From: Escherichia phage phiP4
Reading direction: 5' to 3' (one strand)
DNA: 64,000 nucleotides
Sequence record: PP993145.1
Shown: positions 25,126 to 53,594 of the stretch, piece by piece
Numbering within the stretch: position 1 is the first letter of the stretch
Layout: each line of letters opens with the position of its first letter
Notes under the pieces: generated by a model
What the model was told of the DNA's origin: nothing
Database searches by the model: none
Seen by the model: only the letters and a program-made list of their open reading frames with translations
Translations under genes and position numbers: made by a program

Positions 25126-25127
25126 TT

Positions 25128-25748: not shown

Positions 25749-25759
25749 TTTATATAATT

Positions 25760-26068: not shown

Positions 26069-26070
26069 TT

Positions 26071-26145: not shown

Positions 26146-26152
26146 AAATTTT

Positions 26153-26197: not shown

Positions 26198-26237
26198 ACC
26201 GACATGCTGTCCAGTAACACTCTAGGAATGCAGGAAT

Positions 26238-26314
26238 TGGCGTCCTGTGAGGGGATCGAACCCGCAAATCCTACCTTGAAAGGGTAGTGACTTTACCAGT
26301 TTGTCTAACAGGAC
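26238..26314 (-). tRNA. tRNA-Glu (anticodon TTC)
   Basis: Hand fold: perfect acceptor GTCCTGT/ACAGGAC, anticodon loop CTTTCAA, CCA. Confidence 0.65.
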
Positions 26315-26320
26315 TTAAAT

Positions 26321-26408
26321 TGGTGGGGAAAGATGGAGTCGAACCACCCGAGTCGCAATGACAACTGATTTACAGTCAGCTCTGCTACCACTTACAGAAT
26401 ATTTCCCC
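26321..26408 (-). tRNA. tRNA-Tyr (anticodon GTA)
   Basis: Hand fold: class II, acceptor GGGGAAA/TTTCCCC, anticodon loop CTGTAAA, CCA. Confidence 0.7.
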
Positions 26409-26487
26409 ATATTTAGAAGTATTCAAAAAATTCTCATTTAAACACTTTTAAATATGTTTCCAAATTAGATAAATATTATATCAAGTT

Positions 26488-26526
26488 TTATAGCACTGAG
26501 CAAGTCAAATTTTAAAGAACTTGCTC
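26488..26526 (-). terminator. 13-bp perfect hairpin (GCACTGAGCAAGT ... ACTTGCTCAGTGC), terminator-like, downstream of 26540..26815
   Basis: Perfect inverted repeat followed by A/U-rich sequence; overlaps a promoter-like -35. Confidence 0.4.
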
Positions 26527-26539
26527 AGTGCTGTATTAG

Positions 26540-26815
26540 TTAGTCGAACTTAGGAGTGACAGTTAAGGAGAATGGAAGTTCGAAAACTTCTTCACCCTCA
26601 TCACTAACAGTAATTACACGACCTTTAAGTTCAGACATTGAAATATCAATATCAGCTTTTGCATCTGGAGCCATGCCAGCTTCAACACATTTAGCTTTAA
26701 TTTCCGGTAGAAGTTCTACATCGTAGAAATAAAGCCATTCAATCTCACCTTCCCAGCCTTCCCAGGATTTACAGATTGCACTTTCAATACCAGCTGCTAT
26801 AACACGATTTTGCAT
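26540..26815 (-). CDS. hypothetical acidic protein (91 aa)
   Basis: ORF track. Confidence 0.5.
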   Translation of the reverse strand: MQNRVIAAGIESAICKSWEGWEGEIEWLYFYDVELLPEIKAKCVEAGMAPDAKADIDISMSELKGRVITVSDEGEEVFELPFSLTVTPKFD

Positions 26816-26905
26816 TCGTTAACTCCTCCATCAATTTATATAACTATTATACCAGAAATTTAAAGCAAAAGGCAAGTACATTTTTAAAAATTCTGTTTGG
26901 AAGAG

Positions 26906-27112
26906 CTAAACTCCAGACTCTTCAGCCAAGTCTAGACTAATAAGAGATATAGCCATAATTGCTGCTCCATGTTCTTTTTCTCCAGTTTCTTTAGCTAGAG
27001 TTATAATATCAAGAAATTGCTTATGAAAATCTGCAACCTCTTGAGTTAAACCCGCCTCAGCAATCATACCTTTAAGCATGAAACGTTGTGCGGTAATTTC
27101 AGGATTAGCCAT
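26906..27112 (-). CDS. hypothetical protein (68 aa)
   Basis: ORF track. Confidence 0.45.
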   Translation of the reverse strand: MANPEITAQRFMLKGMIAEAGLTQEVADFHKQFLDIITLAKETGEKEHGAAIMAISLISLDLAEESGV

Positions 27113-27272
27113 GTTGTTTCTCCAGTTTCATCTTTAATAGTCTACAAATAAAATCAATGTCTTCATCCGTGCCTAGATCTCTATCTTCAAGAGTTGCCTT
27201 GAAGTTTTTAGTCAATTCCATGAGAATAACTTCTCTAGAACGACGTGTTGGCGGAGGTGGATGTCTATACAT
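27105..27272 (-). CDS. small hypothetical protein (about 55 aa, below track threshold)
   Basis: Hand-translated ORF with 8-nt overlap onto the start of 26906..27112. Confidence 0.35.
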   Translation of the reverse strand: MYRHPPPPTRRSREVILMELTKNFKATLEDRDLGTDEDIDFICRLLKMKLEKQHG

Positions 27273-27287
27273 CTTATTTCCTTAATT

Positions 27288-27364
27288 TGGTAGGGGTGGT
27301 GGGATTCGAACCCACAAAACCTGAATTTTAAGTCCAGTACCTATGCCAATTCGATTACACCCCC
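27288..27364 (-). tRNA. tRNA with Leu-type anticodon TAA but class I (short variable loop) architecture
   Basis: Hand fold: acceptor GGGGGTG/CACCCCT with G1-U72, discriminator A, CCA, anticodon loop CTTAAAA. Confidence 0.5.
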
Positions 27365-27465
27365 ATGTAATCAGTTTATTAGTTGATACATATTATAGCC
27401 TAGTGAAAATCCTACTACTAATCCCACAAACCAACCAATATAATAATCTTTTAGTTTCACAGGTA

Positions 27466-27651
27466 TTATCCTCGTTCAATATCTAGGGAAATACCGCAGT
27501 TAGGATTAATACCTGTACCATTGCAATTTGCGCAAACCCAGATATTGCAAAAAGTATCTCCTGCTTCTGCATCAGAACTTTCACCAATTCCCCTACACTC
27601 AGGGCAGGCACATTCCTCTAGCTCTTGCTTGAGTTCTTGAAACTTGGACAT
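27466..27651 (-). CDS. Cys-rich zinc-ribbon-like small protein (61 aa)
   Basis: Paired CxxC motifs (CPEC ... CANC). Confidence 0.45.
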   Translation of the reverse strand: MSKFQELKQELEECACPECRGIGESSDAEAGDTFCNIWVCANCNGTGINPNCGISLDIERG

Positions 27652-27659
27652 ATAGTCTC

Positions 27660-27848
27660 CTAGTTAATTACTTTTGAGGCTTCTAAAGCATTGACGTAGT
27701 AAACATCTTCTACATTATACATATAGTCTACTACTTTGTCCATAGCATGGAGTTCAGATGTAGCCTTTACTAGTCTGTACCCTTGCTTAAACTCGTCCGA
27801 ATGTTCTCTATCTTGTGCAAATTTAACAGAAACTATGAATAATTCCAT
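27660..27848 (-). CDS. hypothetical protein (62 aa)
   Basis: ORF track. Confidence 0.4.
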   Translation of the reverse strand: MELFIVSVKFAQDREHSDEFKQGYRLVKATSELHAMDKVVDYMYNVEDVYYVNALEASKVIN

Positions 27849-27867
27849 TAGTTGTCCTTATTTAATT

Positions 27868-27945
27868 TGGTGGCTCCCCGAGGATTCGAACCTACGTACC
27901 TTCCGGTTATGAGCCGGGTGCTCATACCATATGAGCTTGAGAACC
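27868..27945 (-). tRNA. tRNA with anticodon CAT (third CAT tRNA; Met or Ile2), imperfect T-stem
   Basis: Hand fold: acceptor GGTTCTC/GGGAGCC, D-arm GCTC/GAGC, anticodon loop CTCATAA, CCA. Confidence 0.5.
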
Positions 27946-27951
27946 AAAATC

Positions 27952-28040
27952 TGGCGGAAGAAGTGGGAATCGAACCCACAAGGCTATATTTCAAGCCGAC
28001 AGATTAGCAATCTGCTGCAATACCGTTATGCTATTCTTCC
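27952..28040 (-). tRNA. tRNA-Ser (anticodon GCT)
   Basis: Hand fold: class II, perfect acceptor GGAAGAA/TTCTTCC, anticodon loop TTGCTAA, CCA. Confidence 0.65.
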
Positions 28041-28061
28041 GAATTTATAAGATATATTATA

Positions 28062-28580
28062 TTAGAAATTTAGCTTCATAGCAAGAAAATTTTTCAAGTT
28101 TTCGGTAGACATCTCATCCACATCTACAGGAGAAACAAAGCCGTTTAATTTTCTAGCAAATTTTTCACCTGCAGGGTCATTATCCCCGACAGCTACCAAT
28201 TTAAAAGGTAATAATTTCAGTTGCTTTAATAACGCTTTTCCTGGAGAAGAACCCAACATTGCCAGGGCTGGATAACCAGCGTTATGTAACGCAACTGCCT
28301 TAAATACAGATTCAGCAATCAATACTACTTTTTCATCTCCATTGAGAGTTTCTAGTCCCCATACACACTGGATAGTAGAATAAGTAAAATATTTAGCTTC
28401 AAATGGGCACTTACCATGACCTTTTGGAGCAGAAGGATTATACGTCTGATAGCCTCTCAACATCCCAGAGAAGTCATACAACGGGACTGTTAGCCATCCT
28501 TCCGGACTTAACCAGCAATGATATTTATCTGTATCAAATCCTCTAGATAAGAGGTGCTGTGTTAGCTCATCAACATTCAT
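28062..28580 (-). CDS. hypothetical protein (track ORF 28062..28631; start moved to ATG at 28580)
   Basis: Promoter -10 at 28611..28616 lies inside the track ORF; ATG at 28580 has a GAGAGG RBS. Confidence 0.5.
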   Translation of the reverse strand: MNVDELTQHLLSRGFDTDKYHCWLSPEGWLTVPLYDFSGMLRGYQTYNPSAPKGHGKCPFEAKYFTYSTIQCVWGLETLNGDEKVVLIAESVFKAVALHNAGYPALAMLGSSPGKALLKQLKLLPFKLVAVGDNDPAGEKFARKLNGFVSPVDVDEMSTENLKNFLAMKLNF

Positions 28581-28610
28581 ATTTGGTTCCTCTCTCAAAT
28601 TTATAGATAT

Positions 28611-28639
28611 ATTATACAGAGAATTTAGCATTCAAGCAA
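28611..28639 (-). promoter_or_regulatory. sigma70-type early promoter (TTGCTT-N17-TATAAT)
   Basis: Hexamers and spacer read directly. Confidence 0.6.
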
Positions 28640-28755
28640 TCAAATTTTTTAACTTTTTAGAGGAAAATCATATGGCACTTAAGGGTAGCAGATAAGTGGT
28701 GAGGACCAAAATTTGTGACCCCACTAAAAATCCGGGGGTAATTTTTAAAGACCCC

Positions 28756-28784
28756 TTGACATTTTCTCGGGGGTAGTGTAAAGT
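28756..28784 (+). promoter_or_regulatory. promoter-like element (TTGACA-N17-TAAAGT) for the + strand island
   Basis: Perfect -35 TTGACA, 17-nt spacer, weaker -10. Confidence 0.4.
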
Positions 28785-28846
28785 ATACGTTATGGATGAG
28801 TGATCAAAGAGACACACATTTTCTATATACTAGGAGGTGTCAAAAA

Positions 28847-29833
28847 ATGACAGAAGAAGTAGCTAAGAGTCCTGAGACCGTCGCTAGCGTTGCAGCAGAA
28901 CTGCACCGTCACGAGGAATCGGATAAGAAAAAGTGGGAGAAGGTCAGAGCCTACGAAGAGAAACATCGCGAACACGACGATGAAGAAGATGACGATGATG
29001 AACATTGTCATAAATATGGAAAACATAAAATGCAAGAACCAGTAAACGTATTCACTAGTGGCTTCCCTGGCCTACTGGGTGGTTACCCAGCAAACGCAGG
29101 TGCTTTCGGTGGTGAAGGTATGGGACTATTCGGAGCTATCCTAATCGGTGCTCTATTAACAGGCGGATTCGGTGGTTTCGGTGGATTCGGTGGACGTGGT
29201 GTAGTTGGTGATGGTACCGCAGTTGATGCAGTACTTCAGAACCAAGATACCGCTAGTATTCTAGCAGCTATTAACACTACTCGTACAGAAGCTAACCAGG
29301 GTACTGGAGCTGTTTTAAGCGCAGTTAACAATGGTTTTAGCCAGACATCCCAAAACCAGAGCCGTGATACTCAGTCTGTACTAACTACGATCTATGGTAC
29401 AGGTGCTAATCTGTCTAATCAGATCTGCCAGGAAACTCGCAACGTTATTCAGGGTCAGTTCGATCTTTCTCGCCAGATTGATCAATCTTTCGCAGCTAAC
29501 CAGATAGCTCGTGCACAAGATAAGTTTGATTCTGCACAGATCGCTTTCCAGCAGACTTTACAAACTAATAACCAGTTTGCCGCTGTTCAGGCTCAGATGT
29601 GTGCTAACCAGAACTCTCTGGAACGTCAGATCGCTGAATGTTGCTGTGAACTTCAGACTGCGATCGCTGGTGTAACTACTGCGCGTATCCAGGATGAGTT
29701 AGACGCATGTCGCCTACGTGAAGCAATCGCTGCTGGTAGCGGTGCTAACGGTCAGGTAATTAATCAAATCGCTTTAAGTCTTGGTGCTATCACTCAGACT
29801 CTGGCTGGTCTGCAGGCTAAACTGCCGGCTTAA
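28847..29833 (+). CDS. low-complexity protein: acidic N-terminus, Gly-Phe repeat hydrophobic segment, Gln/Asn-rich body, Cys cluster (track ORF 28796..29833)
   Basis: AGGAGG RBS before ATG at 28847; GGFGGFGGFGG and ECCCE motifs read directly. Confidence 0.5.
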   Translation: MTEEVAKSPETVASVAAELHRHEESDKKKWEKVRAYEEKHREHDDEEDDDDEHCHKYGKHKMQEPVNVFTSGFPGLLGGYPANAGAFGGEGMGLFGAILIGALLTGGFGGFGGFGGRGVVGDGTAVDAVLQNQDTASILAAINTTRTEANQGTGAVLSAVNNGFSQTSQNQSRDTQSVLTTIYGTGANLSNQICQETRNVIQGQFDLSRQIDQSFAANQIARAQDKFDSAQIAFQQTLQTNNQFAAVQAQMCANQNSLERQIAECCCELQTAIAGVTTARIQDELDACRLREAIAAGSGANGQVINQIALSLGAITQTLAGLQAKLPA

Positions 29834-29854
29834 TATTAAGGGGAGGAGCCCATT

Positions 29855-30259
29855 ATGAGTAAATATGGTTTTGTAAATAACGGACTTAATCAAAGTATGG
29901 GCTCCCAGCAGCCCATGCCGGGTCTGGATAACCCCTACTTACAACAGTTGCAACAGCGTTTAGCAGAAGCGCAACAGATGCAGCAACAACTCCAGCAAAA
30001 CCCTGGAAGTGTGAGTCCTATGCAAATGATGCAGCAAATGAGCGGGCAGTCGCAAATGCCTCAACAAATGCAGCAACAGGTGCCGCAGCAGCAAACCCAA
30101 CAACCGCAGGTTTCTGCGGAAGGACAGGCAGTACTAGCCCTTTTCGAAGACTTCGCAAAGACAGAGGATGGGAAACAGCTTGTATCACTTATGGGTAAGT
30201 TTAATAGCTTCTGCCAAAGCCAAGTTGCAAAAGCTCAAAATGGTGGTAATAACTCCTAA
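29855..30259 (+). CDS. Gln/Met-rich low-complexity protein (134 aa)
   Basis: GGAGG RBS; polyQ-like composition. Confidence 0.5.
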   Translation: MSKYGFVNNGLNQSMGSQQPMPGLDNPYLQQLQQRLAEAQQMQQQLQQNPGSVSPMQMMQQMSGQSQMPQQMQQQVPQQQTQQPQVSAEGQAVLALFEDFAKTEDGKQLVSLMGKFNSFCQSQVAKAQNGGNNS

Positions 30260-30268
30260 GGAGGAATT

Positions 30269-30463
30269 ATGTGTTGCAGAAAATCTGTTTCGTGCTGCCC
30301 AATGCCTGTAACACGTTGTTGCTCTCCAGCAATGTTTACGCAAATACCGGCGTTCAATCCGTTTGCCTTTAAACCTATTCTTATCCTGCCCCCTAGAGTA
30401 GATTTTCAGTCAAGATTGGCCTCCCGTATGGGTGGTTGCTGTACACCGAGAGTGTGGTTCTAA
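30269..30463 (+). CDS. Cys-rich small protein (64 aa)
   Basis: AGGAGG RBS upstream; multiple CC pairs. Confidence 0.45.
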   Translation: MCCRKSVSCCPMPVTRCCSPAMFTQIPAFNPFAFKPILILPPRVDFQSRLASRMGGCCTPRVWF

Positions 30464-30477
30464 ACCAAAAAACAAAA

Positions 30478-30510
30478 GCCCCTGCCGAAAGGTAAGGGGC
30501 TTTTTCTTTT
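30478..30510 (+). terminator. rho-independent terminator (GCCCCT ... AGGGGC + T-run)
   Basis: GC stem followed by TTTTTCTTTT. Confidence 0.6.
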
Positions 30511-30518
30511 GCCTTAAA

Positions 30519-30554
30519 TACAGAAAAGCCCGCGCTCTCGGAGGAAACGCGGGC
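30519..30554 (-). terminator. rho-independent terminator for the minus-strand SPFH gene (GCCCGCG ... CGCGGGC + U-run)
   Basis: GC stem followed on minus strand by TTTTCTG. Confidence 0.6.
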
Positions 30555-30579
30555 TTGGTTCGAAGATTACGTGTAACTA

Positions 30580-31527
30580 TTACTTGTTACGCATATCCAT
30601 GATCATTTGACCATCGTAGCCAGTACCTACCACAGTCTGAGGCACACCACCTTGATACTTCTGAGCACGAATCATTTCAACTTCCAGTTGCTTCCAGCGA
30701 ATCATCTCAGGAGTAATGGTACGTTGCAATGCGGCGTTAGCTTCAGCTTCTTTTTTAGCTGCGTACAGTTTAGCATCTGCGTCACGTTCGTTAGCAATAG
30801 CCTGGTTATTACGGGCTTCACGGTCTGCTTCTGCCTGTTTAACTTTTTGCTGTGCTTCTTGTTCAACACGAGCCAACTCAGCTTTTGCAGCATTAACTTG
30901 CTCTTCACGAACTTTGGTATTCTGTACCTGTTCCATGATTACTGGTGGCAGAGTAATATCCTGAAGGAATACCTGCTTAACTGTGTAACCATATGGGCGT
31001 GCATACTCTTCAACTTCTTGTTGAATTGCAGTTTGCAATTGAGCCTGAATTTTAGCATCAAACAAATCTTGTGCTTTAGGTACAGACTTACCAAACTCAC
31101 GAATAGTAGACAGTAATTTTTCAGTTACATATTTGTCTAACGCTTGATCCTGAGTACCCGCATTAATACGGTTAATCGGTGCCTTAGAACCATCAAACTG
31201 CAACATAACAGTCAGGTCAACAGTGGATTTAAACTTATCCTGGCTAGGAACCTGAAGTTTATCTAATTTTACAGCAATATCTTTTGTACTAAAAGTATCG
31301 AAAGATGCAAATGGGTTTACAAGATGGAAACCCGGTAATACTGGGTTAGGATCTACTTTACCCAGAAATGTTTGGGTTTTAACCGTACCATCAGAAACAA
31401 TAGTATATGAATTAAAGGCTAGAATCAAGCCTGCTAAACCAACTACAGCACCAATACCCCAACGTTTAATAGTACGAATTACTTTCTGCTCAGAAGTCAG
31501 TTCTTTCATATTTTTAGTATTAAACAT
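30580..31527 (-). CDS. SPFH/band-7 (stomatin/prohibitin/HflK-C-like) membrane protein (315 aa)
   Basis: N-terminal TM segment, SPFH-like core, C-terminal Ala/Glu/Gln-rich coiled coil. Confidence 0.65.
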   Translation of the reverse strand: MFNTKNMKELTSEQKVIRTIKRWGIGAVVGLAGLILAFNSYTIVSDGTVKTQTFLGKVDPNPVLPGFHLVNPFASFDTFSTKDIAVKLDKLQVPSQDKFKSTVDLTVMLQFDGSKAPINRINAGTQDQALDKYVTEKLLSTIREFGKSVPKAQDLFDAKIQAQLQTAIQQEVEEYARPYGYTVKQVFLQDITLPPVIMEQVQNTKVREEQVNAAKAELARVEQEAQQKVKQAEADREARNNQAIANERDADAKLYAAKKEAEANAALQRTITPEMIRWKQLEVEMIRAQKYQGGVPQTVVGTGYDGQMIMDMRNK

Positions 31528-31561
31528 ATATTTCCTTTGTTTTAGTTACAGTTAATAAAAT

Positions 31562-31636
31562 TGGCCGAGGTGACAGGATTCGAACCTGCATAAAGGAATT
31601 TAGAAGACTCCTGCCTCTCCCTTAGACTACACCCCG
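31562..31636 (-). tRNA. tRNA-Arg (anticodon TCT)
   Basis: Hand fold: acceptor CGGGGTG/CACCTCG, anticodon loop CTTCTAA, CCA. Confidence 0.65.
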
Positions 31637-33143: not shown

Positions 33144-33611
33144 TTAAGTTTTAGTGACAACAGGTTTATAGAATGTATGTCCCTTAATCTTAGTTGTTTT
33201 CTTAAATTTCTTTGTCCAGTAAGGTTTATCTTTACCACTATGGAAGTATAGTGCTCCATGTGTAGGATCTTGTGGTAAATCAACGTAGTATATCACTCTA
33301 GCTAAATTCTTAGCTGTTTGCCAAGCCTCATCAGTTTTATCAACTTTTGGTCTCTTAGATACCCAAGAGAACTGGTTAGACTGATATACTACTTTACAGT
33401 AGGAATCTGGGAATTTACCGGAGTTTACACGGTTTTTAGTAACATGTGCAATCGCCGTCATTCCCTTTATGCCCTCACCACGACTTTCGAAATAGATATT
33501 TTTAGCAATGCAATCTATTTCTTTTGCATCGTGCGATGCCTGACTACTAAAGCTGAAGGTAAGGGCAGCTACTAAAAGCAAAGCTGCCTTCATTCTTTTT
33601 ACTCCTGCCAA
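33144..33611 (-). CDS. secreted cell-wall hydrolase (SleB/CwlJ-like Hydrolase_2 domain) (155 aa)
   Basis: Signal peptide plus conserved block NIYFESRGEG ... AIAHVTKNR. Confidence 0.55.
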   Translation of the reverse strand: MAGVKRMKAALLLVAALTFSFSSQASHDAKEIDCIAKNIYFESRGEGIKGMTAIAHVTKNRVNSGKFPDSYCKVVYQSNQFSWVSKRPKVDKTDEAWQTAKNLARVIYYVDLPQDPTHGALYFHSGKDKPYWTKKFKKTTKIKGHTFYKPVVTKT

Positions 33612-33916
33612 TCATATTCAACACGATTGGGATTTTCTTTATACCCTAAGTCAAGCAAATCATTACGCATATTTTGCTTAGCTACTGGGTTCGAGGTTAC
33701 TAGTACCACTTTCTTTGGTCTCTGCCCAAATTCTAAGAGTAAACGAAGAATTTGATAACCTTCCATACCATCTACAGCCAAGTCATTATCCATATAAACG
33801 AAATGGCCTGTGGTATCAGTTTTATTCAGAAACTCTACAGCGGCTTCTGGGGTTCGAATGATAATGTCCATTCCGTGAAGATTACGCACATCATCAATCA
33901 AAATATGAAAAGTCAT
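33599..33916 (-). CDS. hypothetical protein (105 aa), possible receiver-like fold
   Basis: ORF track; weak resemblance only. Confidence 0.4.
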   Translation of the reverse strand: MTFHILIDDVRNLHGMDIIIRTPEAAVEFLNKTDTTGHFVYMDNDLAVDGMEGYQILRLLLEFGQRPKKVVLVTSNPVAKQNMRNDLLDLGYKENPNRVEYDWQE

Positions 33917-35315: not shown

Positions 35316-36017
35316 TCAAATTTTCATTTTTTCGATCATAGCTGCAACACAATAGCTCTCAACTAAGGCATCGAATGCTGGATCATGCTTAACTGGATAG
35401 ATTCCATAACGAATAGTGTCCATTTTCTCCATTTTAGCGGTTGCCCAGCTAATACCTTCAGCCTCTAGCTCTTTGTAACTATATCCAGCTTGCATCCAGA
35501 GATTACGAAGAGATCGAACATTGCCCAAATTCCAGAATTTCCACGGAACTACCTCTTCATTGGTTCCAGCATGGAAAGTGTTTGCAGAGTAGATAGTCAT
35601 ATCAAACTCTGGGCCATTGCCATAATACAAAGCATTATCGCCTAGAGCCAACTCCATAATATTTTGAGCCATAGAGTAGGCAGCATAGTTAGAGCCGAGT
35701 TTATTAGTACAATGATGTTTACCGTTTTGGAATGCAATCAGCTTTGGATTACGCTCGTTCATAGCTTGCATAATGTGGATAGCAGACGGGCTGTCTTTAG
35801 CTTGATCCATCCAGAATGCTAGAGTAGATGCTGTAACTTTAGCACCAGAGTTAAGCTGATCTTGTACATCCAAAGTAACAAATACTAGATCAGGGTCTTT
35901 ATCAATTCCATGCATAGCCACAAAAGCGAAAGAAGGCATTGCGATATGAGTAGTACCACAATCTCCTGGAGTTCCTAGAGATTCAATATCTAGCATACCA
36001 AATGGTTTTACTTTCAT
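35316..36017 (-). CDS. DEDDh-type 3-prime to 5-prime exonuclease-like protein (233 aa)
   Basis: Motif I LDIESLG, motif II GPEFD, motif III HDPAFDA resemble DnaQ-like Exo I/II/III. Confidence 0.45.
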   Translation of the reverse strand: MKVKPFGMLDIESLGTPGDCGTTHIAMPSFAFVAMHGIDKDPDLVFVTLDVQDQLNSGAKVTASTLAFWMDQAKDSPSAIHIMQAMNERNPKLIAFQNGKHHCTNKLGSNYAAYSMAQNIMELALGDNALYYGNGPEFDMTIYSANTFHAGTNEEVVPWKFWNLGNVRSLRNLWMQAGYSYKELEAEGISWATAKMEKMDTIRYGIYPVKHDPAFDALVESYCVAAMIEKMKI

Positions 36018-47354: not shown

Positions 47355-47400
47355 TCAGCCGGGTTGCTAGTCGACCTGGCTTTTATTTTATTTGCTTTCA
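47355..47400 (+). terminator. rho-independent terminator after nrdD (imperfect GC hairpin + TTTTATTTTATTT)
   Basis: Hairpin followed by T-run; overlaps the next promoter. Confidence 0.5.
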
Positions 47401-47420
47401 GCCAAAAATTTATATATAAT
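47392..47420 (+). promoter_or_regulatory. sigma70-type early promoter (TTGCTT-N17-TATAAT)
   Basis: Hexamers and spacer read directly; conserved leader follows. Confidence 0.6.
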
Positions 47421-47448
47421 AGATTTATAAATTTGATGAGAGAAAGAT

Positions 47449-47661
47449 ATGAGAGTTCACAAGGTAGATAAAGAACGTATCTATTTTATTATGGATTCTG
47501 GGGCGTATGGTTCCATTCTCCGTGGGGATATAACTAAATTATGTTTAGTAAATACTTGGATGAACGAAGGGAAGATTGATCCTAGGGTGGGATTGTGCTT
47601 ATCCGAACCCGCCCTTTCTATTGCTAATGCAGAAATTGAAATGTTTGAGGAACAAGAATGA
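47449..47661 (+). CDS. hypothetical protein (70 aa)
   Basis: ORF track. Confidence 0.5.
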   Translation: MRVHKVDKERIYFIMDSGAYGSILRGDITKLCLVNTWMNEGKIDPRVGLCLSEPALSIANAEIEMFEEQE

Positions 47662-47861
47662 AAAACGTAAAACATCTTAAATATCGCTTAATTTACAACG
47701 GACGTATGGAAACAGAAGATCTGGCCCAGTTAGCTATTAATTCTAATGAGGTTACAGTGCGTGCGCTGGCAATTGAAAAGTTGCGTGCCTCTTATGAAAA
47801 TCGTGTTATGGAACTAGAGGAGAAACTTTATGGCATTCTCGAAGCTGATGCTACCAGATAA
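47658..47861 (+). CDS. hypothetical protein (67 aa)
   Basis: ORF track; ATGA overlap with previous. Confidence 0.5.
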   Translation: MKNVKHLKYRLIYNGRMETEDLAQLAINSNEVTVRALAIEKLRASYENRVMELEEKLYGILEADATR

Positions 47862-48051
47862 GGGTTTAAACGACGCTTTGGAAAACGCATTAATGCAGCA
47901 GTGGGAAACTGGCTATAAGGATGGTGTTGAATCCTGTGCTACTATGCTAGAAGTTATTGCTAATACCTTAATGGAGAAAGGCAATAAAGAATTAGCTGAG
48001 CTATTAGACAGTATTGGGCAAAACTTCAGAGAACAGGTGAAAAATGCGTAG
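47830..48051 (+). CDS. hypothetical protein (73 aa)
   Basis: ORF track. Confidence 0.45.
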   Translation: MAFSKLMLPDKGLNDALENALMQQWETGYKDGVESCATMLEVIANTLMEKGNKELAELLDSIGQNFREQVKNA

Positions 48052-48859
48052 ATTAATTATTATTAGTGGTGCAGGTTTGAGTGTTGAAAGTGGTGTACGA
48101 GCTTTTCGTACTGATACTGCTAGTGGTAAAGCATTGTGGGATGATTATGATCTAGAAGAGGTATGTAATATTCATGCCTTTCGTGGTAATTTTTATCATA
48201 AAACCCATATGTTTTACAACAAGCGTCGTGAAGAGCTAAAAACTGTTGAACCCAATCTTGCGCATTTGCGTATTGGTGAATGGTATAAACAATATCCAGG
48301 CCAAGTAGTAAACTTGACTACCAACGTTGATGACCTTATTGAGCGTGCTGGCGTTCCACATAGTGACATTCTGCACATTCACGGATATTTAAAAGAGGTT
48401 GTTGTAGCTGATAGCTACAATAGTAGCAATAAACGGATTATTGATGTAGGGTACAATTCTATTGATCCAGACGATTATAAATGGGTTAAACCTAATGTAA
48501 TCTTTTTTGGGGAGCATGCTCCAGCGTACGCAGAAATGTACAATGTTTTTGATGGTATTACCAGTCAAGATATGATCGTTGTGGTTGGTTGCTCTAACCA
48601 AGTAATTAACTTCTACTGGGAATTATTTCCTGTTCTTAATTTGACTGCTGCCAAGCTAATGGTTGTTAACTACTATGATAGTGCCCTAGCGGCGGAACCG
48701 AGCTATCAAGGTATGACTCGTAGTGAGATGTACCAGCTGGAAGAACGCGGTATCCCTTACTGGAGTAAAGGTGCGGTAGATGCTTTCAGTGATCCTGATT
48801 TTATTGCTCGTGTAGAAGCTCATTTAGAGGGTAGACCTTATGTGTCAGGAAATAAGTAA
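48044..48859 (+). CDS. Sir2-family (sirtuin-like) NAD-dependent protein (271 aa)
   Basis: N-terminal GAGLSVESGVRAFR resembles the sirtuin NAD-binding motif GAGIS.ESGI..FR. Confidence 0.6.
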   Translation: MRRLIIISGAGLSVESGVRAFRTDTASGKALWDDYDLEEVCNIHAFRGNFYHKTHMFYNKRREELKTVEPNLAHLRIGEWYKQYPGQVVNLTTNVDDLIERAGVPHSDILHIHGYLKEVVVADSYNSSNKRIIDVGYNSIDPDDYKWVKPNVIFFGEHAPAYAEMYNVFDGITSQDMIVVVGCSNQVINFYWELFPVLNLTAAKLMVVNYYDSALAAEPSYQGMTRSEMYQLEERGIPYWSKGAVDAFSDPDFIARVEAHLEGRPYVSGNK

Positions 48860-49352
48860 TACTCCAATTATTTTTCTAGACATTGATGGGGTGCTCAATT
48901 CGAGCATCTCCCAATATCATGCGCCTGATGATGAAAAGATTTTCTTTGGAAGTGATTGGGTTTTCAAACCGCTTCTCAAGGCTTTTCAGGACTTTATTCG
49001 TCCTTCTCCAATAATGATTGTTGGAGTATCATCTTGGTTCTCTGTCAGAAATGAGATGGAGAACGTTCAGATTATGACCGGATTAGGTCTTATCGATCGT
49101 TTTCTTGGTACAACGGATTTTACTGGGGGTGGATTATCTAGGGGTAATTCTGTTCTTCGCTTCGTTGAAAAGCATAAGCTCAAACATTGGTGTGTGCTTG
49201 ATGATGCGGGTGCTATGATGTATCAGTATCCAACGGTTATAGTCAACGGTAGGACTGGAATAAATCTTCAAGATTTAAGAGCTGTTAGCTATATGTTAGA
49301 ATTTAGTCCGGATCTTGAAATGTGTAAATCCTTACAACAATTTAAGGTGTAA
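48840..49352 (+). CDS. HAD-superfamily phosphatase-like protein (170 aa)
   Basis: Motif I FLDIDGVLN near the N-terminus. Confidence 0.5.
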   Translation: MCQEISNTPIIFLDIDGVLNSSISQYHAPDDEKIFFGSDWVFKPLLKAFQDFIRPSPIMIVGVSSWFSVRNEMENVQIMTGLGLIDRFLGTTDFTGGGLSRGNSVLRFVEKHKLKHWCVLDDAGAMMYQYPTVIVNGRTGINLQDLRAVSYMLEFSPDLEMCKSLQQFKV

Positions 49353-49354
49353 AT

Positions 49355-49783
49355 ATGTTCAACAATGTATTCTCTAAAGAAGCTAACCCAATTTTGGTTA
49401 ACTTTTGGCGTACTCTCCCAGCTAGCCTGTATAATGAGACTATTAACTCTTTGAAAATATGGTGTGAGAATAACGAAATCTCCTTTGCTTTTAAAGATGA
49501 TATTGATGAGGCTCCCTGTATTGGTTTAATTGTTCAGGTAGAGGAGGGTCTTGAAGAGATTGTCGGCTGGAAAGAGTTAGATGAAATGGGCTTAGTTTTT
49601 GCATTAAACTATAAGCTGTTTATGCCTGCTAAGCATCGCCTCGTTGTTAACTATAAAACTAGTGAATCTCCTGGTTTTCAGGTTAATGAACGTTATGGTT
49701 GGTCTTACTCACCGGAAGAAGTAAATGAGGGGATTCAGAAACTTCGACGTTTCGGGTATATGATCCCAGGTTTAACTGCTTAA
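49355..49783 (+). CDS. hypothetical protein, tandem paralog A (142 aa)
   Basis: Shares blocks with the next ORF (DEAPCIG/DDPCVG, MGLVFALN/MGLIVALN, PGL C-terminus). Confidence 0.5.
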   Translation: MFNNVFSKEANPILVNFWRTLPASLYNETINSLKIWCENNEISFAFKDDIDEAPCIGLIVQVEEGLEEIVGWKELDEMGLVFALNYKLFMPAKHRLVVNYKTSESPGFQVNERYGWSYSPEEVNEGIQKLRRFGYMIPGLTA

Positions 49784-49792
49784 GGAGGCAGA

Positions 49793-50185
49793 ATGGAACA
49801 AGTATATTGGCGTCAGATTGATCCTAGTTTGGTGAAACGTGCGGAGAAGCTGCTACAACGTTGGTTGGGGGTAAGACAAGCCTCCTTCACTTTTCCGGAG
49901 CAGCAAATAGATGATCCCTGTGTTGGTGTTTTCCTATCCGGCTACGCGGGGGGATGGGAGTTGGATTGGAATGAATTGTCTGCTATGGGCTTGATTGTTG
50001 CCCTAAACTTCTCTTTGTTCCATCCACGTGGTTTGGCCATATGTCGTGTGCCGGATGATGGTTGTTCGCCATATCTTTTACAGGTGGAAGATGATATTTG
50101 GGAGTACACTCCAGATATTCTCGCAGAAGCTAAAGAACAATTAAATCGTGTTGGGATTTATGTTCCGGGCCTAAATGATGAATGA
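49793..50185 (+). CDS. hypothetical protein, tandem paralog B (130 aa)
   Basis: Paralogous to the previous ORF. Confidence 0.5.
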   Translation: MEQVYWRQIDPSLVKRAEKLLQRWLGVRQASFTFPEQQIDDPCVGVFLSGYAGGWELDWNELSAMGLIVALNFSLFHPRGLAICRVPDDGCSPYLLQVEDDIWEYTPDILAEAKEQLNRVGIYVPGLNDE

Positions 50186-50276
50186 TTTTTATTAGCTCAA
50201 CTCTGATTACCGAGTCATTTTGGCTCGGTTTTATCCGTACTCAAGACCAATGATAGCACCATCCGGAAAATTTTAC

Positions 50277-50305
50277 TTGCAGGATGCCCAAAATCTTGAT
50301 ATAAT
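50277..50305 (+). promoter_or_regulatory. sigma70-type promoter (TTGCAG-N17-TATAAT) about 500 nt upstream of the large ATPase gene
   Basis: Hexamers and spacer read directly. Confidence 0.5.
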
Positions 50306-50804
50306 ATTTATATTGAATTGAGAGACATTAGTAAAAATTGATTTTGCTAATTTTTCTTGTTTACAATCCGCGATACGGAACAGTTAGGCTGCCCCATTAA
50401 GGGTTGTTTTAACTGTTACGTGTTAGTTTTTAAACAAATAGTTAATAGAATACTTAGCGATCTACATCCCGTAGGAACCCTGGTAAGGCCTCGAAGCAAC
50501 CTAGTGTGAGGTGGTTGTGAAGTGAGACGGGAGGAGTGAAAAACTCCGAGAAGTGATGACGTAAGGTATACTGCATCTAGTATGAGCTAGTACATGAAGC
50601 ATTAGGTGAGCAAATCTGGCTTAGCGGCCATCCTCAAGGATTTGTGCGGTATAGTGAAGCGGCAGTGTAGCGTGAAAGTGGAAGTTGCCACCCCACTTCA
50701 GTATTTGCAATTAATTTGTTGAGAAATTGACAGTAACAGTTGTTCTATTCTTTCTGAATAGTCCTAAAGAAAACTTATTTCATTTCCAACACAGGAGTAT
50801 TGTT

Positions 50805-53594
50805 GTGTTCTCAATCCTACAAGGTCATGCAGGATTTCATCGCGACTTAGCCACAGGCATTTGGCGAGAAGTTAAAGCAGAAGACTATCTTTTTGCTAAA
50901 AGATTTTCCTCAAAGCATCCTGAAGGTAAACCAGCTTCAATGCCCTTCAAGTTTGATGTAATTGATGAAGTTGATCCTCAAACCCTAGTAGAAATGCTCC
51001 CTCTTATGAGACGTTTAACGTCTGACCCTCATATCGTTGCGGTACGAGGTCGATGTCTTGCACCTAAAAATAATGTGCGACGTAAGAAGGGCAACTTTAA
51101 TGTATCTAATCCAAGTCATATAATTGCAATGGATGTGGATGGTATTGTAGATACAGGTGGTTGTAACAAGTTTGATCTTGTTGGCATGGCTCGACATATT
51201 ATTAGAATGTTAAATAGTATTAGTGAGGATATGTTTCCTCTTGATGCAGGGTTTATCGCTCATGCATCGTCTTCGGCTGGGCTAAAACCAGGTATCCGAA
51301 TGCACTTAATACTAGAATCTAATGTTAAGGTAACTCAGGGTCAAATCAAGTTCTTATTTACATCTATCAACGAAAGTAGTAGACAAAAGTATGGCTTTGA
51401 TATTGCCGACTTAGCTTATTACTCTTCCGTACAGCTCCATTATTTCGCAGATCCGTTATTTACTGATGGTATAGTAGATCCGTTTAAAGCGGAGGGTGCT
51501 TCACGTCTGGTATTTGTTAAGGGTTCTAAAGTAAATTTACCAAATAATCTGGTTGACTATGAAACAACTAGAGGTGAGTTTAAGGAGGAGTTTTACTCTT
51601 TACTCGATCAAATTAAAGGTAAAAAAGCTGCCTCTGATAAAGTAGAGGAAACTATCAGCGAACTAGAAGAAGCTGAGGATGGAGTGTATCTACGTATCAT
51701 ACCTAAACTCTATCACAGAGCTTTAGAGGATGGTGTTGATTTTGCATGGCTAGAAAAAGAAATCCGTCCAGCCTTATCAGAATATATTGCAACTAAAGAT
51801 AATAGTCGTAATATTCAAGATTACTTTAATAATGGTCGTAAACAGGCTCTGAAGGCGTTTGTTAATAATTCTAAACGCGATATACCTGATGTTTTAAAAG
51901 GTATTCCACTTAAAAAGCTAGAAACTAATTCTCTAGAAACTGATAACTTCTTGAAATTAAATACTGTACCACCAGAAGGTTATATGACTTTTGTAAAAGC
52001 AAGTCTAGGTACAGGTAAAACTACGGCGGTTGTGCGTTGGTTAGATTCAGGAGTTATTAAAGGTAATTTCTTAGCAATTACCAACACTCGAGCACTGGTA
52101 TCTTCAAATGCTAAGAAATTTAGTGCAGGACAATATGATAAGTCTGTAGATATGCTTAATTTTAAGCGTGGCGCTATTGACCGTATGTCCACAACTATTC
52201 ACTCTTTGCATAAGTTCAAGAGTTTTATTGGTCAAATTGATGCAATCTTTATCGATGAATGTGATGCTGTAATGAATGACCTATTATTCGCCCCGGTTGT
52301 TAAACAACGTCGTGAATGTATTCAGGTTCTTCGGGATATTCTTGCAACTGCAAAAATTATTATATTATCTGATGGGGATATTAGTGCAGAAACAATTGAA
52401 GCATATGGTTCTTTGATTGAGTTCGATAAACCGGTTGCATTTTATAATCATCACCGTAAAATGCTATCAAAAGCTCATGCTTATGAGTTCCCGGATGAAT
52501 CCAGTATTTGGGTTGCACTTCAGACTTCTCTAGAAATGGGTGAGAAATCTATTCTGGTATCTGATTGTGGTCCTGATGAACTGAATGAGAAGGGTATGGC
52601 ACTGCGTCGTAATACGGGTGCATTAGTTAAGGAAATCCACTCAAACTCTACGTCTGATGTAGATATTCGACGTATTCTGGATTACACAACTAATGAGCTA
52701 ATTGACCAACAAATTGATTGCTTATTATGTAGTCCATCCGTAACGAGTGGTGTTGACTTCAACTACTTTGATAACGTATTCGTTATTACTAGAACTAGTA
52801 ATCAAGCGCCAAACATGCGTTTCCAAGCAATCAGGCGCGACCGTGGCGCTCAGAACATTTATTATTTTATTGATAAATCTACTAGTGGATTCTCTGCAGG
52901 TTCTGAACAATATAACATTGATGAAGGTTGGCTGGAGTTAGCACAGCAATTATACGCACGTCGTAGGGAGCTGGAGTCTAGGAACTATACTAGTACTTTA
53001 CGTTATTACTTGCTTGATCAGGGTGCAACTATTGATATTTTCAGTGAAAGCTGGGGAACTATCGAAGGTGCAGGAAAAGAGTATACGGAAGAGCGAATCA
53101 AAGCTATTTTGTATTCAACTCCTGATTATTGTGCTCCACGCCATGCAGATGCGTATGAAGCTAAACTACTTCTTGTTCGCTATTATCATCTTGAGTCTAT
53201 TAAAGATGTAACAGTTGAGCACGTTGAACAATATATCAAGGATAAACCGAATGATCGAGCGGCATTCTTCCATAAAATGCACGAGATGTTCTGGGAAGAT
53301 ATTAAGAAGTGTTCAAATGTCACTATCAAACCATTCATAGAAGCTCTGAAAGGTAAGAAGAAAGATTTCTTCCTTAAAACAGGCCAGAGTGCTAACCCAA
53401 AATATGCAAGAATGTATCTTGGTATGATGGGTATTGGTAAGGATATGAACACGGAGAATATTGTAGACTGGTACAGAACCTATTGTAAAATCGAGTGTAT
53501 GCCAATCCCGTATAAGTTTATGACTGATGAGGAGAAACATATGCATGATGAAGCAATGGCAGAGCTAGGTGCTAGAAATGACAGTGAAGAATAA
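50805..53594 (+). CDS. large P-loop NTPase, putative replication helicase or origin-binding protein (track ORF 50727..53594; GTG start at 50805)
   Basis: Walker A SLGTGKTT, Walker B-like FIDECD; AGGAG RBS before GTG. Confidence 0.6.
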   Translation: MFSILQGHAGFHRDLATGIWREVKAEDYLFAKRFSSKHPEGKPASMPFKFDVIDEVDPQTLVEMLPLMRRLTSDPHIVAVRGRCLAPKNNVRRKKGNFNVSNPSHIIAMDVDGIVDTGGCNKFDLVGMARHIIRMLNSISEDMFPLDAGFIAHASSSAGLKPGIRMHLILESNVKVTQGQIKFLFTSINESSRQKYGFDIADLAYYSSVQLHYFADPLFTDGIVDPFKAEGASRLVFVKGSKVNLPNNLVDYETTRGEFKEEFYSLLDQIKGKKAASDKVEETISELEEAEDGVYLRIIPKLYHRALEDGVDFAWLEKEIRPALSEYIATKDNSRNIQDYFNNGRKQALKAFVNNSKRDIPDVLKGIPLKKLETNSLETDNFLKLNTVPPEGYMTFVKASLGTGKTTAVVRWLDSGVIKGNFLAITNTRALVSSNAKKFSAGQYDKSVDMLNFKRGAIDRMSTTIHSLHKFKSFIGQIDAIFIDECDAVMNDLLFAPVVKQRRECIQVLRDILATAKIIILSDGDISAETIEAYGSLIEFDKPVAFYNHHRKMLSKAHAYEFPDESSIWVALQTSLEMGEKSILVSDCGPDELNEKGMALRRNTGALVKEIHSNSTSDVDIRRILDYTTNELIDQQIDCLLCSPSVTSGVDFNYFDNVFVITRTSNQAPNMRFQAIRRDRGAQNIYYFIDKSTSGFSAGSEQYNIDEGWLELAQQLYARRRELESRNYTSTLRYYLLDQGATIDIFSESWGTIEGAGKEYTEERIKAILYSTPDYCAPRHADAYEAKLLLVRYYHLESIKDVTVEHVEQYIKDKPNDRAAFFHKMHEMFWEDIKKCSNVTIKPFIEALKGKKKDFFLKTGQSANPKYARMYLGMMGIGKDMNTENIVDWYRTYCKIECMPIPYKFMTDEEKHMHDEAMAELGARNDSEE

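What the first reader, a model, noticed from the sequence alone, without database searches (positions are those of the whole stretch)
48044..50185. Sir2-like protein, HAD-like phosphatase and a tandem paralog pair: candidate NAD-linked module
Sir2-domain proteins are NAD-consuming effectors in several bacterial anti-phage systems. A phage-encoded Sir2-like protein next to a HAD-type phosphatase and duplicated small proteins could be a counter-defence or NAD-salvage module, or could modify host proteins.
Basis: inference. Interest (0 to 1): 0.7.

Follow-up and report, generated by a model that had tools for sequence, protein, structure and literature searches.

The report
Known T5-phage sirtuin–phosphatase gene cluster
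The four genes are real, but they are the long-annotated T5.102–T5.107 early cluster of T5-like phages; a 2022 comparative-genomics paper already predicted that this sirtuin–phosphatase pair repairs RNA using NAD+, and nobody has tested it.

Summary
Window 48044-50185 holds four overlapping or closely spaced genes. They encode a zinc-less sirtuin (PF02146), a cap-less HAD phosphatase (HAD_SAK_2) and two 31%-identical DUF7415 paralogs. These are the last four genes of a seven-gene early operon (47449-50185).

The window is a T5-like phage. The cluster corresponds to T5.102 and T5.105–T5.107, and 530 phage records match it.

The sirtuin is not a defence-type SIR2 NADase. It belongs to an almost phage-only clade derived from CobB-like class III sirtuins, with the NAD+ site and catalytic histidine invariant.

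Iyer et al. 2022 (PMC9503650) already described this sirtuin + "Swiss-army-knife" HAD neighbourhood. They predicted NAD+-dependent RNA repair, with the sirtuin acting like Tpt1/KptA.

My context analysis supports and slightly extends that:
- A 61%-identical ortholog sits in an RNA ligase 1–cREC–kinase cassette.
- HAD and a DUF7415 half-domain flank rnlA in Aeromonas T4-like phages.
- DUF7415 follows the sirtuin in 31 of 31 sirtuin-bearing Demerecviridae-like loci.
- The window also carries a cREC gene and 22 tRNAs.

The cluster holds no NAD-salvage enzymes. One sequenced natural variant lacks the sirtuin gene. I found no experimental test. Verdict: real, already described, function untested, moderate-to-low interest.

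The parts
47357..47381 (+). Intrinsic terminator after nrdD. It separates nrdD from the sirtuin operon.
   Evidence: 10-bp stem followed by a T-run. A terminator is annotated at the same place in T5 and Lindwurm.
47392..47420 (+). Likely sigma-70 early promoter of the operon: TTGCTT, 17-nt spacer, TATAAT.
   Evidence: Read directly from the sequence. T5 annotates a promoter at the equivalent position. It fell below the scan tool's -35 threshold. Its resemblance to T5 PN25-type promoters is from my memory only.
47449..47661 (+). Small ORF (70 aa), first gene of the operon, function unknown. It is variable among relatives.
   Evidence: phrog_20147, unknown function. Detected in only 5 of 33 related loci.
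47658..47861 (+). Small ORF (67 aa), function unknown. Its start overlaps the previous stop (ATGA).
   Evidence: Detected in 28 of 33 related loci.
47830..48051 (+). Small ORF (73 aa), function unknown. It overlaps the sirtuin start.
48044..48859 (+). Zinc-less sirtuin of a phage-specific clade (T5.102 ortholog). It is the predicted NAD+-consuming catalytic core.
   Evidence: PF02146 E=1.2e-24. Best PDB match is E. coli CobB 1s5p, E=2.3e-17. Invariant across the clade: GAG, F21-R22, Y58, R61, T92-T93-N94-V95-D96, H113. There is no Cys pair in the small domain. No PADLOC hit.
48840..49352 (+). Cap-less HAD phosphatase of the HAD_SAK_2 family (T5.105 ortholog).
49355..49783 (+). DUF7415 paralog A (T5.106 ortholog): acidic (pI 4.75), two beta-alpha-beta-beta halves, function unknown.
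49793..50185 (+). DUF7415 paralog B (T5.107 ortholog): acidic (pI 4.40), preceded by an AGGAGG ribosome-binding site.
   Evidence: PF24187 E=9.7e-32. 31% identical to paralog A. Its C-terminal half matches small T4-like phage proteins.
50210..50234 (+). Intrinsic terminator ending the operon.
   Evidence: CCGAGTC-ATTTT-GGCTCGG followed by TTTTAT, read from the sequence. A terminator is annotated at this place in T5 and Lindwurm.
33599..33916 (-). cREC (cyclic-phosphate-processing receiver domain) gene, 14 kb away beside the tRNA cluster. It is a possible functional partner (inference).
   Evidence: PF20274 E=3.8e-15. In phage Ro1 a cREC gene sits two genes upstream of the orthologous sirtuin.

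Best explanation
This is the T5-type version of a phage NAD+-dependent RNA (probably tRNA) end-healing module, expressed early from its own promoter.

Proposed mechanism:
1. Host ribonucleases (anticodon nucleases, toxins, defence effectors) cut RNA and leave 2',3'-cyclic phosphate and 5'-OH ends.
2. A cyclic-phosphate-processing enzyme opens the cyclic phosphate. The phage's cREC protein, encoded elsewhere in the window, is the candidate.
3. The HAD phosphatase removes a terminal phosphate monoester. Alternatively it dephosphorylates the ADP-ribose-phosphate by-product.
4. The sirtuin uses NAD+ to remove a 2'-phosphate by Tpt1/KptA-like chemistry. A phosphate oxygen attacks C1'' of NAD+, nicotinamide leaves, and the ribose 2''-OH then expels the RNA as 2'-OH, giving ADP-ribose-1'',2''-cyclic phosphate.
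5. Sealing would need a ligase that the window does not encode, for example host RtcB.
6. The two acidic DUF7415 paralogs are accessory subunits of unknown role.

What is shown: the domain identities, the intact catalytic motifs, the operon structure and the gene associations. What is inferred: every biochemical step and every substrate.
For: 1. The neighbourhood and this prediction are already published for the 'Escherichia phage SP15' type, a T5-like phage (PMC9503650 section 3.7.3).
2. The sirtuin belongs to a tightly conserved clade. The best 120 of 173 hits are all at least 50% identical and come from phage records or uncharacterised metagenome contigs; a few carry host-genome labels. Only 2 loci were found in 185,579 species genomes.
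3. A 61%-identical ortholog in Raoultella phage Ro1 lies in the order Metallophos – RNA_lig_T4_1 – cREC – AAA_33 kinase – SIR2.
4. Among 62 IMG/VR loci with this sirtuin, 13 show that cassette and 11 have Rnl1 within about 3 kb.
5. The HAD belongs to the family defined on RNA-repair proteins. It is cap-less, like HADs that act on macromolecules.
6. In Erwinia phage KEY the HAD lies upstream of the sirtuin, so the gene order has changed but the genes stay 1 gene apart.
7. Independently, in Aeromonas T4-like phages (Ah1, Aeh1, PX29, phiAS5) a HAD_SAK_2 homolog (E=5.7e-39) and a DUF7415 half-domain (E=2e-13) flank rnlA within 2.6 kb. The T5 record itself notes these similarities.
8. DUF7415 follows the sirtuin in 31 of 31 Demerecviridae-like loci. 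Two distant relatives lack sirtuin, HAD and DUF7415 together.
9. The window carries a cREC gene, an Rv2179c-like exoribonuclease and 22 tRNA genes.
10. The clade keeps Y58/R61, equivalent to CobB Y92/R95. From general knowledge these residues bind a negatively charged acyl group, so a phosphate could fit.
Against: - No biochemical or genetic test was found in the literature library.
- By tblastn, the window encodes no relative of the Ro1 RNA ligase or kinase, so the pathway is incomplete on its own.
- The best sequence relatives of the sirtuin are protein deacylases.
- The DUF7415 proteins are acidic (pI 4.4-4.75), which is unlike typical RNA binders.
- Neighbours of more distant HAD_SAK_2 homologs are heterogeneous, and some link to NAD+ reconstitution genes instead.
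- Within Demerecviridae the association could partly reflect inherited synteny.
- A natural deletion of the sirtuin exists in one sequenced genome, so the module is accessory.
Confidence: 0.45

Rival explanations
1. The sirtuin is a conventional NAD+-dependent protein lysine deacylase (CobB/SIRT5-like, possibly a desuccinylase). It would reprogram host or phage proteins early in infection. The HAD and DUF7415 proteins would be unrelated neighbours or regulators.
For: The closest solved relatives are CobB, Sir2Af and SIRT5 deacylases. NCBIfam deacylase models are the only hits. The class III Tyr/Arg pair, the catalytic His and the FGE loop are conserved. This is the standard database annotation and was argued for related phage sirtuins in PMC5107563.
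Against: All NCBIfam hits are far below cut-off (100 bits against 243). All four zinc-binding cysteines of the small domain, which helps form the peptide-binding cleft, are absent clade-wide. The near-universal TQNID motif is TTNVD. Recurrent linkage to RNA ligase, cREC, kinase and HAD genes in three phage lineages is not explained by protein deacylation. The clade is almost absent from cellular genomes.
Confidence: 0.2
2. This is an NAD+/ADP-ribose metabolite module for counter-defence. The HAD would dephosphorylate ADP-ribose phosphates, by analogy with the Macro-domain Adpp of NARP1-AP. The sirtuin would process NAD+-derived molecules to blunt NAD+-centred immunity.
For: HAD_SAK_2 homologs 38-40% identical to this one overlap the start of a Prs-like (Adps-like) gene followed by a NAPRTase-family (Namat-like) gene in Serratia phage ChuuTotoro and Acinetobacter phage ABPH49. 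In Ro1-like phages the same gene pair lies divergently next to the sirtuin cassette in 8 of 13 loci, and a NADAR gene lies nearby. NARP1 operons are known to recruit an ADPR-1''-phosphate phosphatase (bioRxiv 10.64898/2026.01.28.702374).
Against: The window has no Adps, Namat or NMNAT homolog by tblastn. The characterised NARP1 phosphatase is a Macro domain, not a HAD. A sirtuin consumes NAD+ rather than restoring it. I did not verify that the Prs-like and NAPRTase-like genes are true Adps and Namat. HAD-NARP adjacency was seen in one phage lineage plus one looser case.
Confidence: 0.12
3. The sirtuin acts as a macromolecular ADP-ribosyltransferase or NADase for host takeover (a toxin-like early function). 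The acidic DUF7415 proteins would serve as its inhibitors or modulators.
For: Some sirtuins ADP-ribosylate proteins (PMC9503650). The gene is in an early operon. The DUF7415 proteins are small and acidic, like many phage inhibitor proteins.
Against: The catalytic His is retained. From memory, SirTM-type ADP-ribosylating sirtuins lack it. No Macro-domain partner is present. There is no similarity to defence NADase SIR2 models. Nothing in the gene contexts points this way.
Confidence: 0.08

Closest known systems
Phage sirtuin RNA-repair neighbourhoods of Iyer, Burroughs, Anantharaman and Aravind 2022 (Viruses 14:1977, PMC9503650), type 3 'Escherichia phage SP15'
   Same: It is the same sirtuin clade and the same adjacent 'Swiss-army-knife' HAD phosphatase in the same phage group (T5-like). 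The DUF7415 ortholog from SP15 is 91% identical. The same functional prediction applies.
   Different: The passages of the paper I read do not mention the two DUF7415 genes, the dispersed cREC gene, or the HAD–rnlA–DUF7415 arrangement in Aeromonas T4-like phages. I did not read the whole paper or see its figures. The prediction remains untested.
E. coli CobB and human SIRT5 (class III sirtuin protein deacylases)
   Same: Shared features are the Rossmann fold motifs GAGxS and FR, the catalytic His, the FGE loop and the Tyr/Arg pair (CobB Y92/R95). CobB is the best PDB match, E=2.3e-17.
   Different: The phage protein has no zinc-binding cysteines and has TTNVD instead of TQNID. It scores far below the NCBIfam equivalog cut-offs. 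Its clade is almost phage-only and its gene contexts are RNA-repair-like.
Tpt1/KptA RNA 2'-phosphotransferase
   Same: This is the proposed working analogue. It is NAD+-dependent, releases nicotinamide, and works by a two-step attack on C1'' followed by transesterification through the ribose 2''-OH. It acts within ligase, kinase and cyclic-phosphodiesterase pathways.
   Different: The fold is unrelated and there is no sequence similarity. The activity has never been shown for any sirtuin. This is an analogy only, not family membership.
T4 Pnkp–Rnl1 tRNA repair
   Different: The window encodes no relative of the Ro1 kinase or ligase. The T4 pathway needs no NAD+.
NARP1 / NARP1-AP NAD+ reconstitution (Osterman et al.)
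   Same: It is an NAD+-centred phage accessory system that recruits a phosphatase acting on an ADP-ribose phosphate. HAD_SAK_2 homologs abut NARP1-like genes in some phages.
   Different: The window has no Adps or Namat homolog. The known phosphatase Adpp is a Macro domain.
Defence SIR2 NADases (ThsA, DSR1/2, SIR2-HerA, pAgo-associated SIR2)
   Same: They share the sirtuin superfamily fold and use NAD+.
   Different: None of the PADLOC models matches. The phage protein has no sensor or partner domains and is encoded by the phage, not the host.

Membership tests
Sirtuin family (Pfam SIR2, PF02146) | Profile match above the gathering threshold | tested here: met
   87.6 bits against a cut-off of 24, covering profile positions 1-178 of 180.
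Sirtuin family (Pfam SIR2, PF02146) | NAD+-binding motifs (GAGxS, FR, N and D of the TQNID motif) and the catalytic His | tested here: met
   G9-A10-G11, S13, F21-R22, N94, D96 and H113 are invariant in 19 clade members and align to CobB. The Gln of TQNID is replaced by Thr clade-wide.
Sirtuin family (Pfam SIR2, PF02146) | Zinc-binding Cys4 module in the small domain | tested here: not met
   There are no cysteines between H113 and K148 in any of the 19 clade members. The CobB cysteines align to non-Cys residues.
CobB-type protein deacylase (NCBIfam equivalogs) | Score above the curated equivalog or subfamily cut-off | tested here: not met
   The best hit is NF001753 at 100.4 bits against a cut-off of 243. 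NF040867 CobB scores 89.5 against 320.
Class III sirtuins (CobB/SIRT5) | Tyr/Arg pair that recognises negatively charged acyl groups | tested here: met
   Y58 and R61 align to the CobB FYNARRR motif and are invariant in the clade. The functional meaning of the pair comes from general knowledge.
Defence-type SIR2 NADases (Thoeris ThsA, DSR, SIR2-HerA, pAgo-SIR2) | Match to a PADLOC defence SIR2 model | tested here: not met
   0 families at E<=0.01 among 5027 models.
Phage RNA-repair sirtuin clade (Iyer et al. 2022) | Membership of the viral sirtuin clade found next to RNA-repair genes | tested here: met
   61% identical to the Ro1 sirtuin, which lies in an Rnl1–cREC–kinase cassette. 13 of 62 clade loci show that cassette.
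Phage RNA-repair sirtuin clade (Iyer et al. 2022) | Adjacent 'Swiss-army-knife' HAD phosphatase (SP15-type neighbourhood) | tested here: met
   The HAD_SAK_2 gene overlaps the sirtuin stop by 20 nt. The HAD is present in 28 of 31 Demerecviridae-like loci.
Phage RNA-repair sirtuin clade (Iyer et al. 2022) | NAD+-dependent removal of RNA 2'-phosphate (predicted activity) | not testable with these tools
   This needs enzymology. No experimental report was found.
HAD_SAK_2 (PF18143) HAD phosphatases | Profile match and the four HAD catalytic motifs | tested here: met
DUF7415 (PF24187) | Profile match above the gathering threshold | tested here: met
   121.5 and 109.4 bits against a cut-off of 27, with two stretches in each protein.
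NARP1 / NARP2 NAD+ reconstitution pathways | Presence of Adps (Prs-like) plus Namat (NampT-like), or NampT plus NMNAT | tested here: not met
   tblastn of Prs-like and NAPRTase-like phage proteins against the 64-kb window found nothing at E<=0.01. Nothing of the kind is annotated in a 96%-identical relative.
T4-type Pnkp/Rnl1 tRNA repair system | Polynucleotide kinase and RNA ligase genes | tested here: not met
   The Ro1 Rnl1, the L004 RNA ligase and the Ro1 AAA_33 kinase gave no tblastn hit in the window. The part of the genome outside the window was not searched.

The most novel reading that the evidence does not exclude
The phage sirtuin is a true RNA 2'-phosphotransferase or RNA-phosphate ADP-ribosyltransferase. 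That would be the first sirtuin shown to act on a nucleic-acid phosphate. Together with the HAD and the fold-orphan DUF7415 pair it would form a ligase-less, NAD+-driven RNA-end healing unit. That unit would protect the 22+ phage tRNAs (and host tRNAs) from nuclease-based immunity, with the HAD possibly also recycling the ADP-ribose-phosphate by-product.
Probability: 0.3. Interest if true: 0.7.

Novelty: already known. Interest (0 to 1): 0.3.

Why it matters
If the published prediction is right, sirtuins would gain a new substrate class: RNA phosphate ends. T5-like phages, already known for tRNA-based evasion of host immunity, would also have an NAD+-dependent RNA-healing arm.

T5 is genetically tractable. 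The cluster is a compact, self-contained operon, and natural variants without the sirtuin already exist. The question is therefore directly testable.

As a genome-scan finding it adds little. The genes have been annotated since the T5 genome was published, and the neighbourhood was interpreted in 2022. The modest additions here are:
- the strict sirtuin–DUF7415 linkage in Demerecviridae;
- the independent HAD–rnlA–DUF7415 linkage in Aeromonas phages;
- the HAD–NARP1-like adjacency in ChuuTotoro- and ABPH49-type phages.

Tried and rejected
- Defence-type SIR2: a PADLOC scan of all four proteins gave no hit, so I rejected it.
- NAD salvage inside the window: tblastn with Prs-like, NAPRTase-like and NADAR proteins, and with RNA ligase, kinase and metallophosphatase proteins, found only the sirtuin.
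- Broad neighbour census of 47 non-T5 HAD_SAK_2 loci: a Pfam scan of 110 neighbouring proteins showed no enriched partner family. Only the closest HAD relatives were informative.
- Neighbour census of the 18 'other' sirtuin loci: mostly unknown proteins.
- DUF7415 near non-Demerecviridae sirtuins (Ro1, KEY, ECO340P2): none found with an HMM.
- Cellular homologs of the clade: 2 loci in 185,579 species genomes.
- Literature: no experimental work on the T5-type sirtuin, on DUF7415 or on HAD_SAK_2.
- Long non-coding gap downstream of the operon: no Rfam hit, no notable repeats, and an RNA fold z-score of -1.6.
- My own error: the HAD structure job modelled the first row of alignment A2 (P0042, 39% identical), not the window protein.
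Full report
**What is there.**
- 48044-48859 (271 aa) matches Pfam SIR2, E=1.2e-24.
- 48840-49352 (170 aa) matches HAD_SAK_2, E=1.2e-19.
- 49355-49783 (142 aa) and 49793-50185 (130 aa) both match DUF7415, E=1.7e-35 and 9.7e-32.

The last two are real paralogs, 31% identical with E=8e-20. Three small ORFs of unknown function (47449-48051) precede the four genes. All seven genes overlap or are 2-9 nt apart. They are bracketed by a terminator after nrdD (47357-47381), a TTGCTT-17-TATAAT promoter (47392-47420, read) and a terminator at 50210-50234. Lindwurm and T5 annotate the same promoter and terminator arrangement.

**Where it comes from.** The window is a T5-like phage (Demerecviridae, Tequintavirus).
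- 530 phage records match 47400-50700 by megablast, the best at 95-98% identity.
- In the T5 reference the genes are T5.102 ('Sir2'), T5.105 (the HAD, mislabelled 'Sir2'), T5.106 and T5.107.
- The mislabel comes from PHROG 18062, which covers the HAD C-terminal half but is named Sir2.

The Sir2-like gene has been noted in T5-like genome papers for years. I found no experimental work on it.

**The sirtuin.**
- Its closest solved relatives are E. coli CobB (E=2.3e-17), Sir2Af and SIRT5.
- It scores far below the NCBIfam CobB cut-offs, 100 against 243 bits.
- It matches no PADLOC defence model, so it is not a ThsA/DSR-type NADase.
- Across 19 diverse clade members these are invariant: GAG, F21-R22, Y58, R61-R62, T92-T93-N94-V95-D96, H113-G114, the KPxVxFF(x)E loop and G181xS183.
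- The enzyme therefore looks active. It lacks every zinc-binding cysteine and carries TTNVD instead of TQNID.
- Y58 and R61 align with CobB Y92 and R95. From general knowledge this pair binds negatively charged acyl groups.
- The best 120 hits are all at least 50% identical and come from phage records or uncharacterised metagenome contigs, a few carrying host-genome labels.
- A clade-specific pattern scan found only 2 loci in 185,579 species genomes.

**Prior description.** Iyer et al. 2022 (PMC9503650, section 3.7.3) already describe three conserved neighbourhoods of a distinct viral sirtuin clade. [quoted passage not shown] SP15 is a T5-like phage; its DUF7415 protein is 91% identical to the window's. 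The authors predict NAD+-dependent RNA repair, with the sirtuin acting like KptA/Tpt1 to remove 2'-phosphates. The finding is therefore already known as a computational prediction.

**Independent checks of that prediction.**

1. Ortholog context. The Raoultella phage Ro1 ortholog (61% identical) lies in the order Metallophos – HNH – … – RNA_lig_T4_1 – cREC – AAA_33 kinase – SIR2 – DNA ligase.
2. Census of 62 IMG/VR loci with this sirtuin.

| Locus type | Loci | Details |
|---|---|---|
| Demerecviridae-like | 31 | 31 with DUF7415 downstream, 28 with HAD |
| Ro1-type cassette | 13 | 11 with Rnl1 within about 3 kb, 8 with a Prs-like gene nearby |
| Other | 18 | mostly unknown neighbours |

3. Gene order. 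In Erwinia phage KEY the order is HAD – 118 aa – SIR2, so the two genes stay 1 gene apart despite rearrangement.
4. A second lineage. In Aeromonas T4-like phages (Ah1, Aeh1, PX29, phiAS5; 13 records) a HAD_SAK_2 homolog (E=5.7e-39) and a DUF7415 half-domain protein (E=2e-13) flank rnlA within 2.6 kb. The T5 record's own notes already cite Aeh1 ORF303c and ORF299c.
5. Other RNA genes in the window. It also encodes a cREC protein (33599-33916, minus strand, E=3.8e-15), an Rv2179c-like exoribonuclease (35316-36017, minus strand) and 22 tRNAs.

These links tie the sirtuin, the HAD and the DUF7415 domain to RNA-ligase-centred repair.

**DUF7415.**
- A confident model (pLDDT 87.6) shows two beta-alpha-beta-beta halves.
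- A profile search of 1.84 billion representatives found only 66 proteins.
- The distant full-length members I looked up that sit on informative contigs lie in Demerecviridae-like synteny after the sirtuin. A fourth sat on a 2.9-kb contig that was uninformative.
- The C-terminal half occurs alone in T4-like phages in mixed contexts: between nrdD and nrdG, after rnlA, and near nudE.
- Both paralogs are acidic, pI 4.4-4.75.
- Their role is unknown.

**Evidence for the rival readings.** HAD_SAK_2 homologs 38-40% identical to this one overlap the start of Prs-like plus NAPRTase-like genes, which look like NARP1, in phages ChuuTotoro and ABPH49. NARP1 operons are known to recruit an ADPR-1''-P phosphatase, although that one is a Macro domain. 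The HAD could therefore act on an ADP-ribose phosphate, which is also the expected by-product of Tpt1-like chemistry. The window itself has no NARP genes. The deacylase reading rests on sequence similarity alone.

**Dispensability.** Of 33 origin-binding-protein-anchored Demerecviridae loci:

| Gene content | Loci |
|---|---|
| Sirtuin + HAD + DUF7415 | 27 |
| Sirtuin + DUF7415, no HAD | 3 |
| None of the three (distant relatives) | 2 |
| Sirtuin deleted, HAD truncated, DUF7415 kept | 1 |

The last locus has an in-frame deletion that removes the sirtuin and the HAD catalytic N-terminus but keeps both DUF7415 genes. This agrees with the report that phage Shivani lacks the Sir2-like gene.

**Verdict.**
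- The module is NAD-linked and plausibly counter-defensive.
- The Sir2-defence analogy and the NAD-salvage idea are not supported.
- The best-supported mechanism is NAD+-dependent RNA-end healing, confidence about 0.45, all biochemical steps inferred.
- It is an already described system in a very well sampled phage group.
- My only additions are the DUF7415 linkage, the Aeromonas HAD–rnlA–DUF7415 arrangement and the HAD–NARP1-like adjacency.

Noticed in passing
window 50186-50805: There is a non-coding gap of about 600 nt between the operon terminator and the origin-binding-protein gene, with a G-rich core at 50370-50720. It has no Rfam hit and no notable repeats, and the RNA fold z-score is -1.6. 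The 955-aa ORF listed from a TTG at 50727 is over-extended: relatives start the 929-aa protein near 50805.
   Followed up: partly
window 33599-33916 (-) and 35316-36017 (-): A cREC cyclic-phosphate-processing domain protein (E=3.8e-15) and an Rv2179c-like 3'-5' exoribonuclease (E=2.4e-8) lie between the tRNA cluster and the nucleotide-metabolism genes. They are RNA-processing genes that could work with the sirtuin module.
   Followed up: partly
window 19549-31636 (-): 22 tRNA genes cover 19 amino-acid specificities, as is typical of T5-like phages. This matters if the sirtuin module repairs tRNA.
   Followed up: no
L175 5530-5919 (IMG/VR contig 2706796320): A natural in-frame deletion fuses the first 24 residues of the 73-aa ORF to HAD residue ~67 onward. 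It removes the whole sirtuin and the HAD DxD motif but keeps both DUF7415 genes. This is a ready-made knock-out phage.
   Followed up: yes
L174 and L181 (distant Demerecviridae, origin-binding protein 65% identical): The sirtuin, HAD and DUF7415 genes are all absent. Four small unknown ORFs fill the nrdD to origin-binding-protein interval in L174.
   Followed up: partly
L002 6001-9217 and L003 6001-9222 (Serratia phage ChuuTotoro, Acinetobacter phage ABPH49): A HAD_SAK_2 gene overlaps the start of a Prs-like gene followed by a NAPRTase-family gene, which looks like NARP1. A HAD accessory to NARP1 is not mentioned in the NARP1-AP preprint, which describes a Macro-domain phosphatase.
   Followed up: partly
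L145 1667-4228 (Aeromonas phage Ah1; also Aeh1, PX29, phiAS5): The conserved order is td – HAD_SAK_2 – nrdA.1 – denA – rnlA – DUF7415 half-domain. This places two of the T5 cluster's families on either side of RNA ligase 1 in an unrelated phage family.
   Followed up: yes
L144 3995-4213 (Klebsiella Jiaodavirus phages): A 72-aa DUF7415 half-domain ORF sits between nrdD and nrdG and overlaps both. In T5-like phages the DUF7415 operon also lies directly downstream of nrdD. A link to anaerobic ribonucleotide reductase cannot be excluded.
   Followed up: no
window 48840-49352 and many GenBank relatives: The HAD gene is often annotated as a second 'Sir2 (NAD-dependent deacetylase)', and the DUF7415 genes as 'exonuclease' or 'tail tube protein'. 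The Sir2 mislabel traces to PHROG 18062. These are annotation artefacts.
   Followed up: yes
L013, L020, L026 (same contigs as L122-L124): The cluster is mosaic in these T5-like genomes. Their sirtuin is only about 51-52% identical to the window's, while the adjacent HAD is 89-90% and DUF7415-A about 77% identical. This suggests recombination inside the operon.
   Followed up: no
L080 2940-3215 (Escherichia phage ECO340P2): An Acb2/Tad1-like anti-defence sponge gene lies 4 kb upstream of that phage's sirtuin ortholog, in a block of unknown small genes.
   Followed up: no
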